Assembly: GCA_000092065.1 (NCBI GenBank)
Contig: CP000582.1
Direction: 5' to 3' (one strand)
Length of the DNA: 64,000 nt
Origin: Ostreococcus lucimarinus
Taxonomy: Eukaryota
Part shown: positions 11,414 to 64,000 of the stretch, piece by piece
Position numbering within the stretch: position 1 is the first letter of the stretch
Layout: every line of letters starts with the position of its first letter
Made by a program: the position numbers and the translations under genes
The notes under the pieces: generated by a model
Database searches by the model: none
Seen by the model: only the letters and a program-made list of their open reading frames with translations
What the model was told of the DNA's origin: nothing

Positions 11414-11621
11414 CAGCGCCGGTGAGGCGCGTCACCGTGTGGGGAGGTGGAGAGAGTGCGAGCGGAGATTAGACAGTTGCACTCGGGACGACGGTTGAAC
11501 CGACGGCGAGCGGCGAGCGGCGGATGTTTCATCATTCATTCATGCCTTTGCGACGACGCGTTTCGACGAGCGGTGAGCTAGATGCTAAAGTTGAGGAATC
11601 GTTCGGTGCGCGCGGAGGGCG

Positions 11622-12581
11622 TCATCGCGCGCGCGCGGCGGCGCCGACGCGAGATTTGACGTGCTGCTGCTGCTGCGCTCGAGCCGTCGGGCGGGTGTCC
11701 TCGGGAACGAACGGGTCGCCGATGGCGCCGTGCACGGATCTTCGGAACGCGGGAAACACGACTGGGTCGCGAATTTTGCTCGCGATGAATTTTTCGAGCT
11801 CTGACTTTTCGGGTGAGGACTTTTCGGCGTCGCGAGCGGCTTTGGCGTACGAATCAGCCTTGCGTTTTTCTCGCTTCTGCTGCGAAAGCAGCGGCCCGAG
11901 ATTTCTACCGCCGCCGCCGCCGCCGCCGCCGGTCGAGGAAGTTCCCGACGATTTTCCCGTTCCCGTCCGTTCGCTCAAGTTGGCCGACGCCTTCCCGGCG
12001 TACGTCGCCGAGCTCGTCGCCGATTTCTCGGGCGATTTCTCCGCCGACGATATCGGACGCGGCACTTTCTGTGACTCCTGCGTCGCACCCTCGGTTTTCT
12101 TCCCCTGCTCCTTCCCGAAGCTCTGCGTCTCGTTCTCACTCGCTCGCTTCGCCCCGTTCCCAGCCTTTCGCTCTCGTTTTCGCTCCTACTTCGACAATCT
12201 ACGATGCGCCGAGAAGAAGGCCGTCTTGGGCGAGTGACGAGAGAGCACCTGCCCAAAATTCGTCCCATCGTCCACGCTCAGCCGCTTCCGCTCGCCTCGA
12301 TCGCCGTCATCGTACACCAAACACACGTGGATCTTCTCCTTCAGCGCGTTGTCCCCCGTCTTGGCCAGTTCTTTGGAGAACGCCGCGTTCGATTTATGCG
12401 CCGCCGCCGCGCGCGCCACGTCTCGCAGAAATTGGTTCAACCGCTGTCCGTTGTGCACTCCCACGCGTCCGACGCGCGCGAGCCCACCGGAACCGGCGCG
12501 CGATTTATCCCCACCGCCCTCGCCGCCGTAGAACGATCGCTCGTCCACGCGCAGGTCGAACGGCGTCTTGTACTTTTCCAT
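11622..12581 (-). CDS. Hypothetical K/E/S-rich protein; two same-frame ORFs separated by a single TAG
   Basis: ATG at 12581 (MEKYKTPFDLRVDE..KIHVCLVYDDGDRGERKRLSVDDGTNFGQ..). A TAG lies at 12186-12188, and the same frame then continues open to 11622 with lysine/glutamate/serine-rich, coding-like composition. See findings. Confidence 0.35.
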
Positions 12582-30844: not shown

Positions 30845-32608
30845 TCACTCCTCGAACGGTTGTTCGAGTAACTCTTTTCGAATCCACACCGCGTAATCGT
30901 CGCCGTGCGTTGCGAGCTCGAACTCTGCGATTTGAGCGAGTATTTCACCCGGAACGTCGTATCTCGGCCCTAGCTTGACGATGATTTTGTCATCGATGAC
31001 CGCGACGTATAAATCGCTCTCGGCGATTTTGATGTCAACTCTGCTCTCGCAGCACACGTTGGCGAGCTTACGGCAGCTCAACAAAGCTCGAATTTCTGAT
31101 GTTAGCGATTAGGACCAACCCAAGTTTTCGTCGCAGCACCAAATGTGCGGGCCAAACACGCAGGGAATGCCGGGATGCAGAAGCGTGTACGCGTAACCCA
31201 AACCGAGACGATCGAGTGGAAACGGCCAGTGATTCTGCGGGTATCCGGTATCGTGGTTGTCGAGAAATGTCACAGCACTTTGCGGTACCCAGCCGGCAAG
31301 CCCAGGCATGCCGCCTTGCTGGTCTCGTAGCCGCCAAAACTCTACTCGCTTGACTGCTTCTTGTAGAATTCCCTTGGTCACGAAGTCGAACAACGCCGCG
31401 CATTCGTCTGCGGCGTTCAACCAATCCACGAGCACGCGTCTCGGCTTGTCTTGATTGTACTCGAGAAAGCTTCCCGACCACGTCATCCCGACCCAGTTCT
31501 CGCCGACGCAGAATTGCTCAAATCCAACCGTTTTCTCCACATACTCTCTCACGAAATTCGGAGCGTAGCCTTGGACGAAATCGAACCTCCATCCGCTGAA
31601 ACCGATGTCATCTTTCAACCAGTTCAACCACTCGATGATCGCTTCGCGAATCTCGGCGTTTGTGTGGTCGAGATCAGGGGCGATTTCGATCGAGTCGCCA
31701 CTATCGTTGGCTCCTTGACCTTCGCGAAAAAATGGATCGTCGCCGACGATGGCGTAAGCTCCCCAATTTATTCGTCTCCCGCTCGGCGTTACTTCGTCCG
31801 CAAACGAGATGAAGCGGCCATCCGAAGCGTACTCAGCGCAACGATGGTTGATGACGATGTCGCACACGGCTACTATTCCGGCTTTTTTCAGAGCCTGTAC
31901 CAACGATTTAAGCTCCGCTTCATCGCCGTACTCGCTACCGTCCAAGTTGTAAATTTCCGATGGCATGTAACCGTGCTCGTCTACCGATAACGACGGTGGA
32001 GGCAACCAAACGTGCGTAAACCCGAAATCCGCTATCATCGGCACTCGATCCTCAATTCTGCGATAGTAAGACTTGTCGCTGTGTAACGAACGCTTCGTCG
32101 ACAACCAATCGAATGCTTGTAAAAGCACGACGTCACTGTAACCAGTTTTACACGTCGAGCATTTGGCCTCCTTCACCGTGCACGCGCTCACCGCGACTTC
32201 TACCTCATCCATCTCGCGCTCGATAAACCGCTCGAGTAAGTCGGAGCTCTTTCCCGGCTCAAACAGCTCAGTCGACCCGCGGTCCCGGAAGACGGCGCGC
32301 GCGTGCTCGATCGCCGGCATCCGCACCGCCGCCGATAACGCGTCGAAGGCGACGTCGGACGCCGACGCCGCAACCTCGTCCTCCTCCTCCTGGACCTCTA
32401 CGTCTCCCTCGCGCGCGCGCTCGACGCGCGCGTCTTTCACCACCCGTCTCATCGCGTCGTCATCACCGCCGCGCGCTCGCGCGCGTCGCATCCGCCGCGA
32501 ATCATCGCCGCCGCGCGTTCGCACCGGCCGAGAAAGTCGATTCGTGTCGCGTCCGGCGCGCGCCGCGCGCGGCGTCGCGAACGCCCGCGCGCGCGAAACC
32601 GCGCGCAT
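30845..32608 (-). CDS. AMY: Alpha-amylase (GH13, plant AMY-type) with transit-like presequence; the C-terminal beta-sandwich domain is separated from the catalytic domain by an in-frame TAA
   Basis: The catalytic domain has LLQAFDW, DIVINHR, GWRFDFVQGY, FLDNHDTG and HPGIPCVF. Downstream of the TAA at 31109-31111, the same frame encodes DLYVAVIDDKIIVKLGPRYDVPGEI..THGDDYAVW, which is the plant alpha-amylase C-terminal domain. See findings. Confidence 0.8.
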
Positions 32609-57357: not shown

Positions 57358-59324
57358 TTAAAATCGCTCACCGAATCGAACATATGTGGAGGCCGTGCCG
57401 CTGTTGTTATCAATGCACCACTCCGCTCGCACCGGCCCCAGTTTGATACCAACACCGTGAGTTGATCCTTTACCAGCTCTTCGATAAAACTCCGTTGGGT
57501 TACCTGATAACGCTGAACTTGACGATAAGTCGGAGCATTGCTCCCAAAATAAGAAGCCGTGTGTTTTCAATACAGGAACAGGGAGGCGTATCTCAACTGC
57601 AGTCTCGAGAAGAGAGCGTGCGGCGCCAAGTTCACCCACGGTGTATCCTCTACAAGAGTGCGGGCCACCCAAAGCAAAAGCATCGTAAGCTGCGCAATTC
57701 CCAAGAATGTGACCTGCTCGAGTGTGCAAGACAACAACAGGAGGAGGAAGAGAATTTTTCTTGTTTTCTGGCAGCAACTGAACAAATCGTGTTAATTCGA
57801 CTTTGGAACGGTTGAATATCGGTCGTTTTGGCCAAAACGGAATCGACTGATCGATCTGAAATATATCTCGGGCGCCGACTTGCGTACCGTTTACAAACGT
57901 CGTCGTGTCTCTGGTGACATTACCCTGAAGGAACATGACTCGATCTGTACCTGTGTCAGATAACGTAGTTCGAGGACCATCAAGCGACAGAGAACCATTT
58001 GGGAGTTGTTTTGCGCCAGACGCACATACCGCTCCCGAATCATCACGCGTTGTCACTTCTTCTAATACCATACCAAGTGAGCACTTCGACTGCTTTGTAA
58101 AGTTCTGGCAAACCGTCGCCTTGATACCTGCTCTATCGACCCAAATGCCGGGAACATCTTGAATCAGAGGCCCTCCGGTGAAGACCGGGGACAGTTTCCG
58201 CGAATTGAAAGCCGCAGCTTTGAAAGATGTCTTATCGCTATCAGCGTCGCCTTTGCAGTACGGGTGGTTGTACTCCAGTTTGAACCCCAGATCTTCCTGT
58301 GGTTCAAGGAAGTTGGCTGTTGAAATCGACCCAAAAAGTTGACGTCCCCAGCTATCCAGATTCCTGTGTTCAAAGAACACAGAACCACCTGGACGCGCCG
58401 AAACAAGATCTGGACGACCATTTTCACCTGGTGCGATACTCCATTCAAGTTCAGTCTCCGCTGTCTTCGTTGGTCTTTCGCGAAGTAGTATATCAACTTC
58501 AATTTTGGATGGATCGCGCTCATCAGGTCTCGGTACAACTTGGACGTTGTCAAACAACTGCAGTAGGAAAATATCACGCAATGCCGTCTTCGCGTCTTCG
58601 ACGTTATAGAGTTTTCCAACTTTAAAATTATGTTCCCTCTGAATCACACGCGGATGAGTCACTCCCTTGTTGCCAGGCATTGGCTGGAGATTCTCGTCTA
58701 CAAAGACCGCTTGGACTCGTGTGATTTCTCCCTCGACGACGTGTGCTATGACCTCACCATTTTCCATTCCATCGAAGTGTGATATCGTACCGAATGTGAG
58801 GCCCTTGCTGGTGTAGTAACCCTCTACGATATTTTTTGCTGTCGCCAACACGCGGACTGTACAGTTTTGACTTTTCCGAGCAGCTTTCAAAACCTCTTGT
58901 TCGACATCTTTTGGAAGTGCAGTCGACCCAGCAACTCTAAACGATTGTACCTGCGGCCAGATCTTTTCTCGAAAAACAAACTCAACTGCGTAACCATCCT
59001 GTTTGGGCGTGACATTGGCGTCAACGTTTGCGAAGAGACCTGTGTTAAGAAGCTGTTCAAGATCATCAGAGAGATCTTTCTTCGAAAGTTCCGCGCCCTT
59101 CCGCGCATTGAGACCCTGAAATAATTCGGACTGTATTGAAAGGAGTTAGTAATAAGTTAAATATTCATGCCGCCTTCCTTACCTTCGTCGGAATACCTGG
59201 ACCGGTCGGAAGATTCGTCGCGAGGACTGATTCACAAATGAAATTATCCCTGTTCTTGGGCTTGTTTGCGGCACGGGCAGTATTTGTGGAGGATTCGTCG
59301 TCGCTGTCGTCGTCGTCATCATCT

Positions 59325-59362
<38 letters not shown>

Positions 59363-59812
59363 GTATTCAACATCGTCGTCGTCAACACTGAGCTCGCCTT
59401 CTCCACCGGAAGCTCGAGCGTCAGCGATAGGAATCGCGGTCAGAAGGTAAATGTTGCTACCACTGTGGCCACTCGAATCGTCAGAGTCCCAACCGTCACC
59501 ACTACCGTCGTTGCCATTCCCGATGCCGGAGCCATGATTTCCACTACCTCCACTTCCAACCTCTGGTTCCTCAGTCACAGAGCTGCAAGCTGTTCCTTGT
59601 TTATGTTTGCTCCTGAGGGTTACACGAAACAAAGAGCGCGACGGTGTGTTGCGCGTGGGCGAAAAAGACCAGTTGGTGCCGGAAGCTCGACGGCTAAATT
59701 TTCCACCCGATGATGCTACGCTCGACGACGCTTTATGTTTATTGTATCGGTGACTGGGCGCGGCGGACTTGATGAAAGCGGCGCGGGAAGAGACCTCCGC
59801 AAGGACGGACAT
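57358..59812 (-). CDS. TOC75: Toc75/OEP80-family (Omp85) chloroplast outer-envelope beta-barrel protein, two exons
   Basis: Exon 2 (57358..59130) encodes POTRA-like repeats and a barrel ending ..GVGIKLGPVRAEWCIDNNSGTASTYVRFGERF, with the GYTVGELG motif. Exon 1 (59183..59812) encodes a transit-like, Gly/Ser-rich stretch and a poly-Asp run. A 52-nt phase-0 intron joins ..PTK | SELFQGLNARKGAEL.. Confidence 0.75.
59131..59182 (-). other. Short spliceosomal intron (52 nt) with GTAAGG donor, TACTAAC branch motif and TACAG acceptor
   Basis: The frame is continuous only if this segment is removed; its stop codon otherwise splits the Toc75 ORF. Confidence 0.7.
59296..59390. repeat. (GTC/GAC)n trinucleotide array encoding poly-Asp in Toc75 exon 1
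   Basis: About 18 consecutive gtc units lie on the + strand, giving DDDDDDDDDDDEDDDDDD in the protein. Confidence 0.8.
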
Positions 59813-60250
59813 GTTCTATCGAAGGCCGCTGTTCTCTATCAAGCGCCAGGGTGTACTTGAATTTTTCGAGAGACTCAAAATGAACCTACTATAAGTGGCG
59901 GCAGCGGACTCAGCCGGTTGAGCACGGCGCGCGAATGACGCCGTGCGCCCTCAAGGGCGAAAGGCTTGAAGCGGAAAGGGTGTCATAATCGACATCGCGC
60001 TTTTCGTATTTAATACGCTTTGAAGACCATACTGGTACCCAAAATAAAAAACTATCATGTAGGTCTCCCCCGAAGGAATAATTTATATCAGACAGATAGA
60101 CTTTAGGCGAATGAAGACAAATTATATGCATTCTTAATCAGTTCATGTTTCGAGTTTACACATAAACTGAGGCGCGCAGCGGCACGGAGCCGTCGACAAC
60201 CGTGCGGCCGCCACTCGCGCGAGGATATCCCATGCACCACAGCTTTCTGA
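59813..60250. promoter_or_regulatory. AT-rich bidirectional promoter region (Toc75 / LTV1)
   Basis: It is ~45% GC with TATAAG and TATAAA-like elements, in contrast to the GC-rich divergent spacers elsewhere in the window. Confidence 0.4.
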
Positions 60251-61624
60251 ATGGGAGGTCGCAAGAAGACGTCGTTTGTGGATAAAAAGAGCGCGGTGAC
60301 GTACGCGTTGCTCCCTAACCACGACCGACAAGCGCACAGCCTCGGCCTTCCTAACACATGGGTCCGGACGGACAATAACCAGGGTGCGGACCCCTTCGAT
60401 GACGGCGATCACGTTGGGCGGGAACTCGAACGTGAGCTCCGAGAAAGCCATTCACAACACGTGTCCGCGGGCGATCTTTCAAATGAAAAGGACACAAACA
60501 ATAAATTGACGGCATCAGAGAAGTTGGAACTAGGACTTCCAGACGACGGCTATGATTACACTAAACACTTAAGAGAGTGCGACCCAGATAAAGTACGTAC
60601 CGTAGAAAGTGATTATGCAAATCCACGCAGTGAGATATTTACGAAAAGCATTGACCACGCAAGAACCGAGTATGCGGGCGGGGCAATGAACCAAGGCGAG
60701 TGTGATTTTCACACCTTGCACGAACAAGATAACATTGCCGACGTGTTACAACTTCTTGACGACATAAGCCAAGGCGGATCAATGGAAACCTGCGCTTACG
60801 AGGAGTTACAAGACGATATAATTTTCTTGGCTAGTCAGCGTAAAAGTGAAGAGCGGTGCTCATCGCCTTTCTTGCCCCGAAAAGTAGAGCCGTTGAGTCC
60901 GCAAACCCATCGTGCAGCCACGAAAGTATTAGTAAGAAGTTCAAGTGATGCGGTAGGGAACGAACGTTCAGACGATAGCCATTTTCTGCGTATGATCCAT
61001 AACTACGATGACGACGATCTTGGCGCTACGCCGATGAAAGATGAGAGCAATATTAGATCTGAGAACACAAAATGGCAGACTCTTGAGCAGTTGAACTTCA
61101 ACGATGGAAATTTACAAAAGCATAACGTGGATGCACGCACAGTGAAAAGTTATGCGCTCAATCATAGTGAGGAACAAACTCCACGAAATGCCTACTTAGA
61201 AGAAAGCATTCTGGACAAAAGAACTCAAGCGACCCACATGTATGACTGCGAAAGCATTTTGAGTTTGCACAGTAACTCAAACCATCATCCAAAACTTCTT
61301 GAAGGGAGACTTCTGAGTGAAGAACGTAAATTGAAAACGCCAGATCAACAGAGTGCAAGCATTCCGGGCATTCATACTTGTTTTCCTCTCGGTATGAAAG
61401 CATCATCAGAAGCTGAATTCGATTGGCGCAGCTGCACAGCTCGTAAAGGAGAAAGTGCTCAACAGAAAAAGGAGCGCAAAAATGCCGTCAAAATGGGCCG
61501 TCGACAAGCTCGAAGTACGAAAAAGGGGTTGAAAGAAAGTTTTCAATATTTCAAGCAAGCAGGAGCTGGGGGCGGTAGCTCTGGGGATGTAAGAGCAAAG
61601 ATATCTGTGACAAAAATGCAGTAG
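60251..61624 (+). CDS. LTV1: LTV1 pre-40S ribosome biogenesis factor
   Basis: The N-terminus MGGRKKTSFVDKKSAVTYALL matches LTV1 (MGKKKxFIDKKxAxTF). The basic C-terminus (KKERKNAVKMGRRQARSTKKGLKESFQ) is also LTV1-like. Confidence 0.7.
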   Translation: MGGRKKTSFVDKKSAVTYALLPNHDRQAHSLGLPNTWVRTDNNQGADPFDDGDHVGRELERELRESHSQHVSAGDLSNEKDTNNKLTASEKLELGLPDDGYDYTKHLRECDPDKVRTVESDYANPRSEIFTKSIDHARTEYAGGAMNQGECDFHTLHEQDNIADVLQLLDDISQGGSMETCAYEELQDDIIFLASQRKSEERCSSPFLPRKVEPLSPQTHRAATKVLVRSSSDAVGNERSDDSHFLRMIHNYDDDDLGATPMKDESNIRSENTKWQTLEQLNFNDGNLQKHNVDARTVKSYALNHSEEQTPRNAYLEESILDKRTQATHMYDCESILSLHSNSNHHPKLLEGRLLSEERKLKTPDQQSASIPGIHTCFPLGMKASSEAEFDWRSCTARKGESAQQKKERKNAVKMGRRQARSTKKGLKESFQYFKQAGAGGGSSGDVRAKISVTKMQ

Positions 61625-61675
61625 CATATCCATGTGGTTGCTCAGTTCTGAAGCATTTCTAGCGTAGGCGCTGTA

Positions 61676-64000
61676 TTATTTAGGTGTCATTTTCGACAAC
61701 AAATTGATCGCATCTGATAGCGCAGATTCATCAATTTTTTCTTCTATTCGCAGATCCAAGTACTTGTGTTCGATACCGAAGCATAAAGACAGCTCGTTGG
61801 AAATCCCTTCAAGCTCACTGATGACACAAATAGGAATATCAGACATGAAGTCAGGATTGACACGGAATAATGGATCACGCGATGAGTAGAGGAGCTGAGT
61901 GCAGCATAGAATACTCAATGTCTCGTTCGGGCATTCATTGACACTATTTGGATTGCTCTCTATAAATACTCTGCGCAAACTTGCGTTGACAGATGCGGAT
62001 TCGTTCTTGACTTCAGGATAAGAGGATGCAAGCAATGCCGCATAACTGAGAATTTTTCCTACATCCGAATTATTCTGTTGCGAGACGAGGACTTCATACT
62101 CTTTTGTGAATAAAGTAACCAAGCCAAGTATTTTTGGGTTCGACTGTATTGCATCACTGGCTTGCTCGCGCCAAGATGGGTCTGCGCATACATGTTGCTT
62201 TGTTTCACACAGTCTCACGAATTCTCGAGCGATATACACTCCTAAACCACGCGTGACTAGTATCACTTCATCGCCGTTGTTAATGTCTAAATAAGCGCGT
62301 ATGCGTTGCACATACATTGCGGCAAGCTCTGAGACGCTTGCTGCGGTGGAGGATTGCCAGTCCGTAGTAACGACGAAAGCTGCTGATTTTATCGACGAAG
62401 CTAGGCTGGAATAAAAACTAGTTCCACAGTCTACGTCATTGAGAAAGACGACTATGGGAGTTGTTGTATTACCATTCAATCGCGTAATAAAGCTTCGACT
62501 CACAGGTGAATTTCTATGCTTCCATTGCGGGAGTCGGTATCTCAAAGTAGCTGCAATGCGCTGAGATTGCTCAGATAGGTTACCTGGAGAAGCTGCATCT
62601 TTCCAGGCATTGGCCAGAGTCGGATTTATGAAACAATGCGACAGAATATTAGGGTCTGCGGCACCTTTTCCTCCCGGTTCGATGGGCTCAAACATTTTCG
62701 CATTATTATAAGAATAAGGATTTGTCATGTTCGTGCAAGAGGGCAATTTTAGAAAGTCGCATATTTTGTCGATATGCGACGTAGGATCAGAAACTAGGTC
62801 TTCGTAACAAATTTCCAATTGTCGAGTACTTTCTACATTGCGCAGAAAATCAATGATGTTGGAATTTCCTCGTGCCCATAATTTATCCATATGGCTCCAG
62901 ATCTGCTCGATGGTGGATGCAGATAGAAGCTCCAAACGTTTGCGGCCATTTAATTGTAGCAACTTCTCATTTTCAAGGATATCATGCCTTGATTTGAAAG
63001 TTTCTTTTGACATGGAGTGGATCGTTGCGTACGGATGCCTGTGTATGAATATATAGTACACATCTTCAAATATTGATTCGGCTCGTTCCAAAGTGTCCAA
63101 AGACCACGAATAAGGTGGCGACTTGTCCACTAGAATCCGATCGCCACACCAATTTTGAAGGACTTCATAGACATTCTTTGTTGACATGGAATGCATGTCG
63201 TGCATTATTTTATCAGCTTCATCGGCGAAACAGCCGCGAAGTTCTACAATAGCTTTACGCAAACCTTCAAACGCCCACGAGTGTCCACGAGATATTGACT
63301 CAAACCTTTGGTACATCGTCTCAAAATTTAGCAAGTAAAGTTCTTGAGGTGCAAAAATTGATGGATGAGAGTTTAGTATCATCTGCAAAAGAGTTGAACC
63401 AGACCTCGGCGACGACAACACGAATAGTATCTTTCCCTTCACCTTTGGCTCGTGGAGCCGTAATCGGGGCATCCATGAATTCGAATCTGTTAGTGGCGTA
63501 TACTTTTTAACTTGCGACTCTATCCACAAACAAATGCGCTCACCGGCACTTAATCCTACTGAGAATGTTTCGCGTGTGACCACTTTGATTGCGGCGTCAA
63601 CACTCGCTGCGATCCCTTTGATAGTATTCTCTCTGAATTCGCCAGACCCACAGTGGCTGAATCCAATATCTCGCAGTACATTGTGCAAAGGCTCTGACAT
63701 TGACAGTGGATGTCGGCGTCGACATGGCTCGTTTCTGCTAAGTGAGCTGTGTAACTCGTTCCAAATACATTTTTGTAGTTGGAAGGTCAACCGATTTGCG
63801 TCAACATGAGTATTCTGGTTAGCGGCGTTGCATCTGGTAAGTAGAACGTTTTGTCTGTGGCGAGGTTCTTGAAAAGCCCGGCAATCGCGGCGCACATTTG
63901 TGAGCACGTGTGCCATACTACCGCCATAACCAAAAGAGCTCGTGCCGATTATACCTCCGCTAGTGGGCCCTTTTAGCATAGGAAAGTGTGATCGCTTGTC
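61676..64000 (-). CDS. 3' end of a type I polyketide-synthase-like gene: KS C-terminus, a CurM/OLS-type sulfotransferase (ST) and a thioesterase-like alpha/beta hydrolase; truncated at the window edge
   Basis: The reading frame is open to nt 64000. GIIGTSSFGYGGSMAHVL resembles the KS C-terminal motif (SSFGFGGTNAHV). KILFVLSSPRSGSTLLQMILNSHPSIFAPQELYLLNFETM matches the PAPS-binding start of CurM-type activating sulfotransferases. The C-terminal ~250 aa (PIVVFLNDVDCGT..EVILVTRGLGVYIAREF..) is collinear with offloading thioesterases. Confidence 0.65.
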   Translation of the reverse strand, partial: DKRSHFPMLKGPTSGGIIGTSSFGYGGSMAHVLTNVRRDCRAFQEPRHRQNVLLTRCNAANQNTHVDANRLTFQLQKCIWNELHSSLSRNEPCRRRHPLSMSEPLHNVLRDIGFSHCGSGEFRENTIKGIAASVDAAIKVVTRETFSVGLSAGERICLWIESQVKKYTPLTDSNSWMPRLRLHEPKVKGKILFVLSSPRSGSTLLQMILNSHPSIFAPQELYLLNFETMYQRFESISRGHSWAFEGLRKAIVELRGCFADEADKIMHDMHSMSTKNVYEVLQNWCGDRILVDKSPPYSWSLDTLERAESIFEDVYYIFIHRHPYATIHSMSKETFKSRHDILENEKLLQLNGRKRLELLSASTIEQIWSHMDKLWARGNSNIIDFLRNVESTRQLEICYEDLVSDPTSHIDKICDFLKLPSCTNMTNPYSYNNAKMFEPIEPGGKGAADPNILSHCFINPTLANAWKDAASPGNLSEQSQRIAATLRYRLPQWKHRNSPVSRSFITRLNGNTTTPIVVFLNDVDCGTSFYSSLASSIKSAAFVVTTDWQSSTAASVSELAAMYVQRIRAYLDINNGDEVILVTRGLGVYIAREFVRLCETKQHVCADPSWREQASDAIQSNPKILGLVTLFTKEYEVLVSQQNNSDVGKILSYAALLASSYPEVKNESASVNASLRRVFIESNPNSVNECPNETLSILCCTQLLYSSRDPLFRVNPDFMSDIPICVISELEGISNELSLCFGIEHKYLDLRIEEKIDESALSDAINLLSKMTPK

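What the first reader, a model, noticed from the sequence alone, without database searches (positions are those of the whole stretch)
12186..12248. Single in-frame TAG between two long same-frame ORFs; a 63-nt in-frame GTGCTC..TAG segment is a candidate mini-intron
The 131-aa ORF from a real ATG at 12581 ends at TAG (12186-12188). The very same frame then stays open for another 187 codons to 11622, with clearly coding-like composition (K/E/S-rich: EKSPEKSATSS..KREKRKADSYAKAARDAEKSS..). Random GC-rich frames here instead give R/A/P-rich sequence. The segment GTGCTCTCTCGTCACTCGCCCAAGACGGCCTTCTTCTCGGCGCATCGTAGATTGTCGAAGTAG (63 nt, minus strand, GT..AG ends, multiple of 3) would, if spliced, fuse ..DDGTNFGQ to ERKRERKAGNG.. 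in frame. Together with the amylase case, this gives two independent examples in 64 kb of in-frame stops that can only be removed by very short, in-frame GT..AG segments. The pattern could indicate a class of tiny introns, a tolerance of stop codons, or systematic assembly artefacts.
Basis: seen in the sequence. Interest (0 to 1): 0.5.

Follow-up and report, generated by a model that had tools for sequence, protein, structure and literature searches.

The report
Premature stop allele, not a mini-intron
The in-frame TAG is a single C-to-T change that turns a glutamine codon into a stop in one otherwise intact 319-codon gene of the green picoalga Ostreococcus lucimarinus; the proposed 63-base "mini-intron" is conserved protein-coding sequence, so the case is ordinary.

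Summary
On the minus strand, ATG 12581 opens a 131-codon ORF that ends at TAG 12186-12188, and the same frame stays open to TGA 11622-11624. The intron reading fails. The window is Ostreococcus lucimarinus CCE9901; the 131-aa ORF is exactly XP_001416362.1. All 14 other O. lucimarinus-type metagenome contigs read at that codon, and four contigs of a sister lineage, carry an uninterrupted 319-322-codon ORF with CAG (Gln). A transcriptome-derived ORF also keeps the 21 residues.

The 63-nt segment evolves as coding sequence (dN/dS about 0.2). It holds residues invariant across Ostreococcus orthologues and aligns to a charophyte DUF7138 protein. In an AlphaFold model it forms a confident helix and strand. 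Distant orthologues lack its GT and AG, and their segment length differs only in multiples of three.

The TAG is not a sequencing error. It recurs on at least four haplotypes from independent samples, as a minority allele. The linked "amylase case" is the same thing (TAA 31109-31111; CAA in a 99%-identical relative).

Best reading: a derived, naturally segregating nonsense allele (Q132*) that keeps the folded N-terminal domain and removes the conserved C-terminus. Low interest.

The parts
11622..12581 (-). One intronless gene of 319 codons (ATG 12581 to TGA 11622-11624), interrupted at codon 132 by TAG in this strain. It is the Ostreococcus orthologue of a green-lineage family related to DUF7138 proteins.
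   Evidence: Uninterrupted 319-322-aa ORFs in 99.4-99.8%- and 91%-identical contigs, with the same neighbours (PsbP-like gene upstream, USP7 downstream). Syntenic distant orthologues. Profile hits to streptophyte DUF7138 proteins.
12186..12188 (-). Premature stop codon TAG (codon 132). It is the derived allele of CAG (Gln): one C-to-T change on the coding strand at window position 12188.
   Evidence: CAG in L001-L008 and in all 14 other O. lucimarinus-type haplotypes read at the site. CGC or CTC in distant orthologues. TAG re-found in L009-L013, three of which sit on different haplotypes.
12189..12248 (-). This is coding sequence for a helix and the last beta-strand of the N-terminal domain.
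   Evidence: dN/dS 0.21 (6.5 synonymous against 5.5 non-synonymous differences). Invariant H116, P118, A121, R128, K131. Aligned to Coleochaete 'ILNQHNPSRERDAHFLISLKKSKKERK'. pLDDT about 93, helix 109-115 and strand 121-127. GT and AG not conserved; orthologue lengths 63, 75 and 81 nt.
12189..12581 (-). Codons 1-131: the folded N-terminal alpha/beta domain, with weak structural matches to ubiquitin-like folds. This is all that the TAG allele can encode, and it is annotated as XP_001416362.1.
   Evidence: Exact match to XP_001416362.1 / ABO94655.1 / A4RT80. AF2 pLDDT 83-95 over most of residues 1-135. Only weak Foldseek matches, to FERM-F1, RA and UBL domains.
11625..12185 (-). Codons 133-319, lost in the TAG allele: a basic ERKRERK helix, a disordered S/G/K/E-rich linker, and a conserved C-terminal motif. 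There is no in-frame Met, so AUG re-initiation is impossible.
   Evidence: Translation. dN/dS 0.37. Predicted disorder at 145-225. Conservation.
11712..11777 (-). Codons 269-290, K.RDPVVFPAFRRSVHGAIGDP: the most conserved block of the protein, downstream of the premature stop.
   Evidence: Nearly every column is invariant across the Ostreococcus orthologues aligned. The same motif is also visible in two more distant homologues, P0193 and P0195, whose taxa are not identified.
11907..11930 (-). (GGC)7GGT glycine run inside the gene. Its length varies among relatives and it causes frameshifted assemblies.
   Evidence: 8, 9 or 10 Gly in P0043, P0046, P0004 and P0006; frameshifted P0007 and P0008.
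31109..31111 (-). It is the same kind of event (CAA to TAA).
   Evidence: CAA in the 99%-identical L020 / P0072, which is 587 aa with PF00128 and PF07821. Other Ostreococcus species have coding sequence at that place. The TAA allele was re-found in SRR1179203 and SRR1179204.

Best explanation
The window comes from Ostreococcus lucimarinus CCE9901. Positions 11622-12581(-) hold one intronless 319-codon gene. Its product has three parts: a folded N-terminal domain (remotely related to DUF7138, with weak structural matches to ubiquitin-like folds), a basic helix followed by a disordered linker, and a strongly conserved C-terminal motif.

In this strain, and in a minority of wild haplotypes, one C-to-T transition has changed codon 132 from CAG (Gln) to TAG.

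**Shown:**
- The TAG is real, derived, and segregating in natural populations.
- The 63-nt segment is coding sequence, not an intron.

**Inferred:**
- Translation stops at codon 132. The product is a 131-residue protein that keeps the whole N-terminal domain and lacks the C-terminal 187 residues. The allele is therefore a partial or complete loss-of-function variant of a dispensable or conditionally useful gene.
- The downstream frame is still intact because the allele is young on the timescale of pseudogene decay, not because it is translated.

The amylase TAA at 31109-31111 is a second, independent Gln-to-stop substitution of the same kind.
For: **Identity.** The 131-aa ORF is exactly XP_001416362.1 of O. 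lucimarinus CCE9901.

**One gene.** Uninterrupted 319-322-aa ORFs lie in the same gene order in L001-L008. The intact protein P0043 is indexed in 415 blocks of the collection, including Tara marine metagenomes.

**Single-base cause.** CAG against TAG is the only difference at that codon. Other differences are 3 per 960 nt.

**Derived state.** CAG in the 91%-identical lineage; CGC or CTC in distant syntenic orthologues.

**Not an artefact.** TAG is present in L009, L012 and L013, which differ from the window at 0.2-0.6% of sites, and in L010 and L011, which are identical to it. Contigs L014 and L015 end exactly at 12189, the base before the SNP, as expected where an assembly graph branches because both alleles are in one sample.

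**The segment is coding.** dN/dS is 0.21. It holds invariant residues. hhalign to a Coleochaete DUF7138 protein (probability 97.8%, E = 1e-12) runs straight through the segment and the stop position. pLDDT is about 93 with defined secondary structure. An MMETSP transcript ORF (P0046) retains it.

**Splice sites.** GT and AG are absent in L016, L017 and L019. An in-frame GT..AG is expected by chance for 85% of CAG codons.

**Precedent.** Nonsense SNPs segregate in wild O. tauri at about 14 per strain, at low frequencies (PMC5498103).
Against: There is no transcript, ribosome-profiling or protein data for the TAG allele itself, so the fate of its mRNA and protein is inferred.

The TAG allele occurs on at least four haplotypes and carries private linked variants: C or T at 12375, where all 14 CAG haplotypes have G. 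It is therefore not brand new, which fits a mildly deleterious, neutral or even favoured variant better than a strongly deleterious knockout.

In TAG haplotypes the downstream frame shows no further disabling change (L009). That is also what a functional read-through would predict.

Two nonsense alleles in 64 kb is more than the O. tauri figure would predict. I estimate about 0.07 expected, scaling 14 per strain by a genome of roughly 13 Mb, a size I recall rather than took. The window and the cases were picked after the fact.
Confidence: 0.9

Rival explanations
1. Mini-intron: the 63-nt GT..AG segment 12186-12248(-) is spliced out, removing the TAG and fusing ..NFGQ to ERKRERK.. This would be one example of a class of tiny in-frame introns.
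For: GT and AG ends are present and the length is a multiple of three. Small introns of 40-65 bp really exist in Mamiellales (PMC3491373). The segment is slightly less GC-rich than the gene (57% against 63%), and its codon-usage score is near zero.
Against: - Conspecific and sister-lineage alleles have CAG and translate straight through.
- A transcript-derived ORF keeps the 21 residues.
- dN/dS is 0.21 and five residues are invariant inside the segment.
- The alignment to charophyte DUF7138 proteins runs through it.
- It forms a helix and a strand of a confidently modelled domain.
- GT and AG are absent in distant orthologues, and length differences are all 3n.
- The known Mamiellales small introns are AT-rich and confined to the low-GC BOC1 region. 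This gene sits in 68%-GC DNA.
- The GT..AG coincidence is expected for 85% of CAG codons.
Confidence: 0.02
2. Tolerated stop by translational read-through: near-cognate decoding of UAG, for example by tRNA-Gln, yields enough full-length and possibly wild-type protein that the TAG allele is nearly neutral. This would explain its persistence on several haplotypes and the intact downstream frame.
For: TAG sits on at least four haplotypes with private linked variants. The downstream frame is undamaged in L009. From general knowledge, not tested here: near-cognate read-through of UAG commonly inserts Gln, which would restore the ancestral residue. Both stops in the window replace Gln codons.
Against: - The stop is not conserved in any orthologue and is a minority allele.
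- Its 3' context is TAG-GAG-CGA, which from my knowledge does not match the CARYYA read-through motif.
- The surrounding RNA is not unusually structured (z = -0.95).
- An intact downstream frame is expected anyway for a young allele.
- Gln codons make up about 39% of one-transition routes to a stop here, so two out of two is unremarkable.
Confidence: 0.06
3. Sequencing or assembly artefact in the reference genome: the true base at 12188 is C.
For: A single-base difference from the common allele.
Against: The same TAG appears in six independent contigs from Logan and ENA assemblies. Two are 100% identical to the window over 5.6-6.4 kb, and three lie on clearly different haplotypes. The amylase TAA is likewise re-found in SRR1179203 and SRR1179204.
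Confidence: 0.01
4. Chance open frame: the gene really ends at 12186 and the downstream 187 codons are non-coding GC-rich DNA.
For: Long stop-free runs are common in this window (3.5% of runs reach 187 codons or more). The public annotation stops at 131 aa.
Against: The downstream part is conserved in syntenic orthologues, including an almost invariant C-terminal motif. dN/dS is 0.37. The codon-usage score is positive in this frame only.
Confidence: 0.01

Closest known systems
Segregating nonsense SNPs in natural Ostreococcus populations (O. tauri population genomics, Blanc-Mathieu et al. 2017, PMC5498103)
   Same: A single-nucleotide stop-gain variant at low frequency in a haploid, recombining picoalga. 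The intact allele predominates, and the variant sits on several haplotypes.
   Different: This is a different species (O. lucimarinus). Here the nonsense allele is the one fixed in the reference genome, so public databases list only the truncated 131-aa product. Two such alleles in 64 kb is denser than the roughly 14 per strain reported for O. tauri.
Small (40-65 bp) AT-rich introns of the Mamiellales big outlier chromosome region BOC1 (Moreau et al. 2012, PMC3491373)
   Same: The size range, and the fact that tiny introns are real in this order of algae.
   Different: Those introns are AT-rich against GC-rich exons, clustered in the low-GC BOC1 region, and supported by ESTs. The 63-nt segment here lies in 68%-GC DNA, is only slightly below the gene's GC, is conserved as protein, and is retained in a transcript-derived ORF.
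Pfam DUF7138 (PF23596) proteins of streptophytes (e.g. the Coleochaete scutata and Psilotum nudum sequences P0197 and P0204)
   Same: A shared N-terminal start (MESF.TP.), the motif K.L.I.E.TNF..IL..H.P....A.F......SKKERK that spans the segment and the stop position, a long disordered middle, and a conserved extreme C-terminus.
   Different: The Ostreococcus protein does not reach the Pfam threshold by itself (no hit at E up to 1). It is shorter (about 320 against 370-530 aa). The family has no known function.
Programmed stop-codon read-through (e.g. UAG read-through in plant and animal viruses and some cellular genes)
   Same: An in-frame UAG followed by a long, conserved, same-frame coding extension.
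   Different: In programmed read-through the stop codon itself is conserved among orthologues and is flanked by a stimulatory context or structure. Here the stop is a minority allele absent from all orthologues, and no such context or structure was found.

Membership tests
Spliceosomal intron (including Mamiellales BOC1 mini-introns) | Absent from mature mRNA | tested here: not met
   The MMETSP transcriptome-derived ORF P0046 (320 aa, O. lucimarinus-type, CAG allele) contains all 21 residues. No transcript of the TAG allele itself was available.
Spliceosomal intron (including Mamiellales BOC1 mini-introns) | No protein-level constraint on the sequence | tested here: not met
   dN/dS 0.21 within the segment. 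Invariant H116, P118, A121, R128, K131. Aligned to charophyte DUF7138 protein. pLDDT about 93 with a helix and a strand.
Spliceosomal intron (including Mamiellales BOC1 mini-introns) | GT/AG boundaries conserved at orthologous positions | tested here: not met
   The 5' position reads TTG, ATT, TTG and the 3' position reads CGC, CTC, CGC in L016, L017, L019.
Spliceosomal intron (including Mamiellales BOC1 mini-introns) | Length free to vary out of frame among species | tested here: not met
   63, 75 and 81 nt in orthologues, all multiples of three, with no stop.
Spliceosomal intron (including Mamiellales BOC1 mini-introns) | AT-rich relative to exons and located in the low-GC BOC1 region (PMC3491373) | tested here: not met
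   Segment 57% GC against 63% for the gene. The surrounding 2 kb is 68% GC.
Nonsense (premature termination codon) polymorphism | Differs from a sense codon of conspecific alleles by one base | tested here: met
   TAG against CAG at 12188; 14 CAG haplotypes at 99.4-99.8% identity.
Nonsense (premature termination codon) polymorphism | Stop is the derived state (outgroups carry a sense codon) | tested here: met
   CAG in the 91%-identical lineage L005-L008; CGC or CTC in distant syntenic orthologues.
Nonsense (premature termination codon) polymorphism | Reproducible in independent samples and co-occurring with the intact allele | tested here: met
   TAG in L009-L013 from five different runs or assemblies. 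Contigs break at 12189 in L014 and L015. TAG and CAG contigs come from assemblies with the same name prefix (BPAM22-1).
Nonsense (premature termination codon) polymorphism | Produces a truncated protein and/or a destabilised mRNA | not testable with these tools
   Needs RNA-seq, Ribo-seq or proteomics of a TAG-allele strain.
Programmed stop-codon read-through | Stop codon conserved among orthologues | tested here: not met
   No orthologue or sister lineage has a stop there.
Programmed stop-codon read-through | Stimulatory 3' context or RNA structure | tested here: not met
   Context is TAG GAG CGA. The fold of 161 nt around the stop gives z = -0.95 against shuffles.
Programmed stop-codon read-through | Full-length protein made from the stop-containing mRNA | not testable with these tools
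   Needs proteomics or ribosome profiling.
Pfam DUF7138 (PF23596) | Protein scores above the Pfam gathering threshold | tested here: not met
   No DUF7138 hit at E up to 1 for the window protein.
Pfam DUF7138 (PF23596) | Significant profile-level homology to proteins that carry the domain | tested here: met
   hmmsearch with the Ostreococcus profile against 1.84 billion proteins finds P0197 at E = 1.4e-9 and others at 1e-7 to 1e-4. Eight of ten tested hits match DUF7138, seven of them above the Pfam gathering score. hhalign probability 97.8%, E = 1e-12.
Ubiquitin-like (beta-grasp) fold | Structural match to solved beta-grasp domains | tested here: inconclusive
   The Foldseek PDB search has no hit at E of 0.001 or better. 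The best hits (E = 4.5e-3 to 0.2) are FERM-F1, RA, plexin UBL, SAP18 and USP7 UBL domains, with low TM-scores because the model is mostly disordered.

The most novel reading that the evidence does not exclude
The Q132* allele is not a dead allele but a maintained functional variant in wild O. lucimarinus. Either the free-standing N-terminal domain is useful by itself, or low-level near-cognate (Gln) read-through of UAG restores the ancestral protein. Gln-to-stop alleles such as this one and the amylase TAA would then be unusually well tolerated, and unusually frequent, in this alga.
Probability: 0.08. Interest if true: 0.4.

Novelty: new member of a known kind. Interest (0 to 1): 0.12.

Why it matters
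It matters mainly as a correction. The reference protein XP_001416362.1 / A4RT80 (131 aa) is the truncated product of a minority nonsense allele. In the contigs examined here, mostly ocean metagenomes, the gene is usually 319 codons long and belongs to a green-lineage family related to DUF7138.

It also shows that in-frame GT..AG segments around a stop are no evidence for mini-introns in this GC-rich genome. The tiny-intron idea is in any case already known for the low-GC BOC1 region of Mamiellales.

A minor population-genetic point remains. Two Gln-to-stop alleles in 64 kb of a reference strain, one of them shared with wild haplotypes, suggests that loss-of-function variation in O. lucimarinus deserves a genome-wide count.

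Tried and rejected
- **Pfam on the separate and fused ORFs:** only sub-threshold noise (RhlB, Kgd4-YMR31).
- **Exact look-up of the hypothetical spliced 298-aa product:** not in the 15-billion-protein collection.
- **Foldseek against the PDB:** no hit at E of 0.001 or better, so the ubiquitin-like fold remains a lead only.
- **Sample metadata for SRR1179203, SRR1179204, SRR5915733 and SRR23274481:** no paper found. I cannot say whether these runs are cultures of CCE9901, DNA or RNA.
- **The O. lucimarinus genome paper (Palenik 2007):** not held by DOI or by the PMC id I guessed. I give no intron statistics and do not assert a chromosome assignment.
- **First coding-potential scan:** the threshold was too strict and returned nothing. 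The relaxed scan returned the two real cases plus three weak candidates. I judged by eye that one of these (TGA 50597) is a boundary between adjacent genes and the other two are GC-rich noise.
- **tRNA scan of the window for a suppressor tRNA:** no tRNA genes at all.
- **RNA fold around the stop:** nothing unusual.
- **Simple ORF-pair scan for 'single stop between two long frames':** dominated by GC-rich noise and uninformative alone.

Full report
**1. The observation**

On the minus strand, ATG at 12581 opens a 131-codon ORF that ends at TAG 12186-12188. The same frame then runs for 187 more codons to TGA 11622-11624. The downstream part contains no methionine, so it cannot be started separately at an AUG.

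How much of it exceeds chance:
- The open frame alone is weak evidence. The composition-based P for 187 stop-free codons is about 0.012, and 3.5% of stop-bounded runs in the window are at least that long.
- The in-frame GT..AG carries no information. 85% of CAG codons in bona fide genes of this window have an in-frame GTN codon 5-32 codons upstream. Almost any CAG-to-TAG change would look removable by such a segment.

**2. Source of the window**

The 131-aa ORF is identical to XP_001416362.1 / ABO94655.1 / UniRef A4RT80, a 'predicted protein' of Ostreococcus lucimarinus CCE9901, on a record of 895,087 bp. Its neighbours are a PsbP-like gene and Med7 on one side and a 1209-aa USP7-type ubiquitin hydrolase on the other.

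**3. What relatives carry at that codon**

A search with the read-through translation found full-length proteins of 318-322 aa at 85-99% identity. It also found more distant homologues of 286-349 aa at 33-37% identity. All have a sense residue at the stop position: Q in the close relatives, R or L in the distant ones.

The DNA of eight contigs shows CAG where the window has TAG.
- In the four 99.6%-identical contigs, this is one of only four differences in 960 nt.
- Ten further contigs encoding the intact protein, nine of them from different samples, all have C at 12188.
- The intact protein P0043 is indexed in 415 blocks of the collection, including a Tara marine metagenome.

Gene order (PsbP-like, this gene, USP7) is kept even in the distant homologues, so they are orthologues.

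**4. The TAG is real and natural**

The exact 131-aa product was found on further contigs.
- L010 and L011 are 100% identical to the window over 5.6-6.4 kb.
- L009, L012 and L013 differ at 0.2-0.6% of sites and still carry T at 12188.
- The TAG haplotypes also carry C or T at the synonymous site 12375, where all 14 CAG haplotypes have G.
- Two contigs (L014, L015) end exactly at 12189, the base before the variant. A de Bruijn graph assembler does this when both alleles are present in one sample.

The stop is therefore a derived, segregating, minority allele. It is neither a sequencing error nor a laboratory mutation confined to the reference strain.

**5. The 63-nt segment is coding sequence**

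- *Selection.* Against the 91%-identical lineage it shows 6.5 synonymous and 5.5 non-synonymous differences, dN/dS 0.21. The N-terminal part gives 0.26 and the downstream part 0.37.
- *Invariant residues.* It contains H116, P118, A121, R128 and K131, followed directly by invariant E133-R134-K135 on the other side of the stop.
- *Splice sites.* In distant orthologues the proposed 5' GT reads TTG, ATT, TTG and the 3' AG position reads CGC, CTC, CGC. The segment is 63, 75 or 81 nt long, always in frame.
- *Transcript.* A transcriptome-derived ORF (MMETSP, P0046) of an O. lucimarinus-type strain retains all 21 residues.
- *Deep homology.* A profile of the family searched against 1.84 billion proteins finds streptophyte proteins from Coleochaete and Psilotum at E of 1e-9 to 1e-6. 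These carry Pfam DUF7138. The profile alignment runs straight through the segment and the stop: 'KRLSVDDGTNFGQVLSRHSPKT--AFFSAHRRLSKQERKRERK' against 'QKLPINENTNFNIILNQHNPSRERDAHFLISLKKSKKERKVGAK' (hhalign probability 97.8%, E = 1e-12).
- *Structure.* In an AlphaFold2 model, most of residues 1 to about 135 is confident (pLDDT 83-95). The segment forms helix 109-115 and strand 121-127 at pLDDT about 93.

Removing it would delete part of a folded domain. The mini-intron reading is rejected.

**6. Known tiny introns in this group**

Mamiellales do have many 40-65 bp introns. They are AT-rich, lack conserved motifs, are supported by ESTs and are confined to the low-GC BOC1 region of the big outlier chromosome (PMC3491373). 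The segment here lies in 68%-GC DNA and has 57% GC against 63% for the gene. It does not fit that class. In any case, 'a class of tiny introns' would not have been a new idea for this organism.

**7. The linked amylase case**

The alpha-amylase gene is interrupted by TAA at 31109-31111(-), between its catalytic domain and its C-terminal beta domain.
- A 99%-identical relative (P0072, 587 aa, PF00128 plus PF07821) reads ...DENLGWSQSLTSEIRALL..., with CAA at that codon.
- Other Ostreococcus species have in-frame coding sequence there.
- The TAA allele was re-found in two Logan assemblies, SRR1179203 and SRR1179204, and is not in NCBI as a 499-aa product.

Both 'mini-introns' are thus C-to-T, Gln-to-stop substitutions. 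Gln codons account for about 39% of one-transition routes to a stop in genes of this window, so two out of two is unremarkable. A coding-potential scan of all six frames recovers these two cases and no other convincing one.

**8. What the protein is and what the stop does**

The protein has four parts:
- A folded N-terminal alpha/beta domain. Foldseek gives only weak matches, mostly to ubiquitin-like beta-grasp domains, so this is a lead and not a result.
- A basic helix, ERKRERK...
- A predicted disordered S/G/K/E-rich linker with a length-variable glycine run.
- An almost invariant C-terminal block, K.RDPVVFPAFRRSVHGAIGDP (also seen in more distant homologues).

Its function is unknown.

The stop falls right after the last strand of the N-terminal domain. 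I infer that the TAG allele yields a 131-residue protein with an intact N-terminal domain and no C-terminal motif, which makes it a partial or complete loss-of-function allele.

Read-through is the main alternative, but nothing supports it. No orthologue has the stop, the 3' context is TAG-GAG-CGA, the local RNA is not unusually structured (z = -0.95), and there is no tRNA gene in the window. The intact downstream frame in TAG haplotypes is expected for a young allele.

**9. Comparison with what is known, and verdict**

Nonsense SNPs segregating at low frequency are documented in wild O. tauri, at about 14 per strain (PMC5498103). This is another instance of the same kind in O. lucimarinus, and it happens to be fixed in the reference genome and annotation.

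One slightly unusual point remains. Two such alleles in 64 kb is more than that figure predicts. I estimate about 0.07 expected, using a genome of roughly 13 Mb, a size I recall rather than took from the paper. The cases were selected after the fact.

Interest is low. The practical value is an annotation correction, plus a caution against reading in-frame GT..AG segments as introns in GC-rich genomes.

Noticed in passing
window 31109-31111 (-), gene about 30846-32608 (-): The alpha-amylase gene is cut by TAA between the catalytic and C-terminal domains. A 99%-identical relative has CAA (Gln) there, so this is a second Gln-to-stop allele in the reference strain and not a 24-nt intron. The TAA allele was re-found only in SRR1179203 and SRR1179204.
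   Followed up: yes
whole window: Two nonsense alleles in 64 kb (about 35 genes) is more than the roughly 14 nonsense SNPs per strain reported for O. tauri would predict. It is unclear whether this is local, strain-specific or a selection effect.
   Followed up: partly
window 11907-11930 (-): A (GGC)7GGT glycine run inside the gene varies in length among relatives (8, 9 or 10 Gly). It is the site of frameshifted metagenome assemblies (P0007, P0008).
   Followed up: partly
L014 and L015 (contig ends at window 12189): Contigs from two independent samples stop exactly one base before the C/T variant. This is the signature of an assembly-graph bubble, meaning both alleles are present in the same sample.
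   Followed up: partly
window 12375 (-), codon 69 third position: A tri-allelic synonymous site. All 14 CAG haplotypes have G, while TAG haplotypes have C (window, L009-L011), T (L012) or G (L013). The TAG lineage therefore has private linked variation and is not brand new.
   Followed up: partly
protein P0035 (325 aa, JGI metagenome): A chimeric metagenome assembly. It is O. lucimarinus-type up to the conserved GAIGDPF motif, then continues with the C-terminal tail of a distant Ostreococcus species (as in P0012 and P0013).
   Followed up: no
window 57500-64000: GC drops to 43-50%. The region holds a Toc75-like Omp85 gene (57358-58890 -) and an ORF running to the window edge (61676-63979 -) with a ketosynthase C-terminal extension followed by a sulfotransferase domain. 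This looks like the tail of a large polyketide synthase. It may mark the start of a low-GC outlier region.
   Followed up: partly
window 11524-12237 (+), seen as L009-L011 3345-4058 (-): In TAG-allele contigs, automatic gene callers fill the 'empty' space after the premature stop with a 237-aa antisense ORF. This is a GC-rich artefact, not a gene.
   Followed up: no
window 12581 region and streptophyte homologues P0197, P0204, P0211: The N-terminal residues (MEKYKTPF / MESFKTSF in Ostreococcus, MESFATPY in Coleochaete, in P0211 and, after two extra residues, in Psilotum) are conserved from prasinophytes to land-plant relatives. That is unusual for the extreme N-terminus of an uncharacterised protein.
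   Followed up: no
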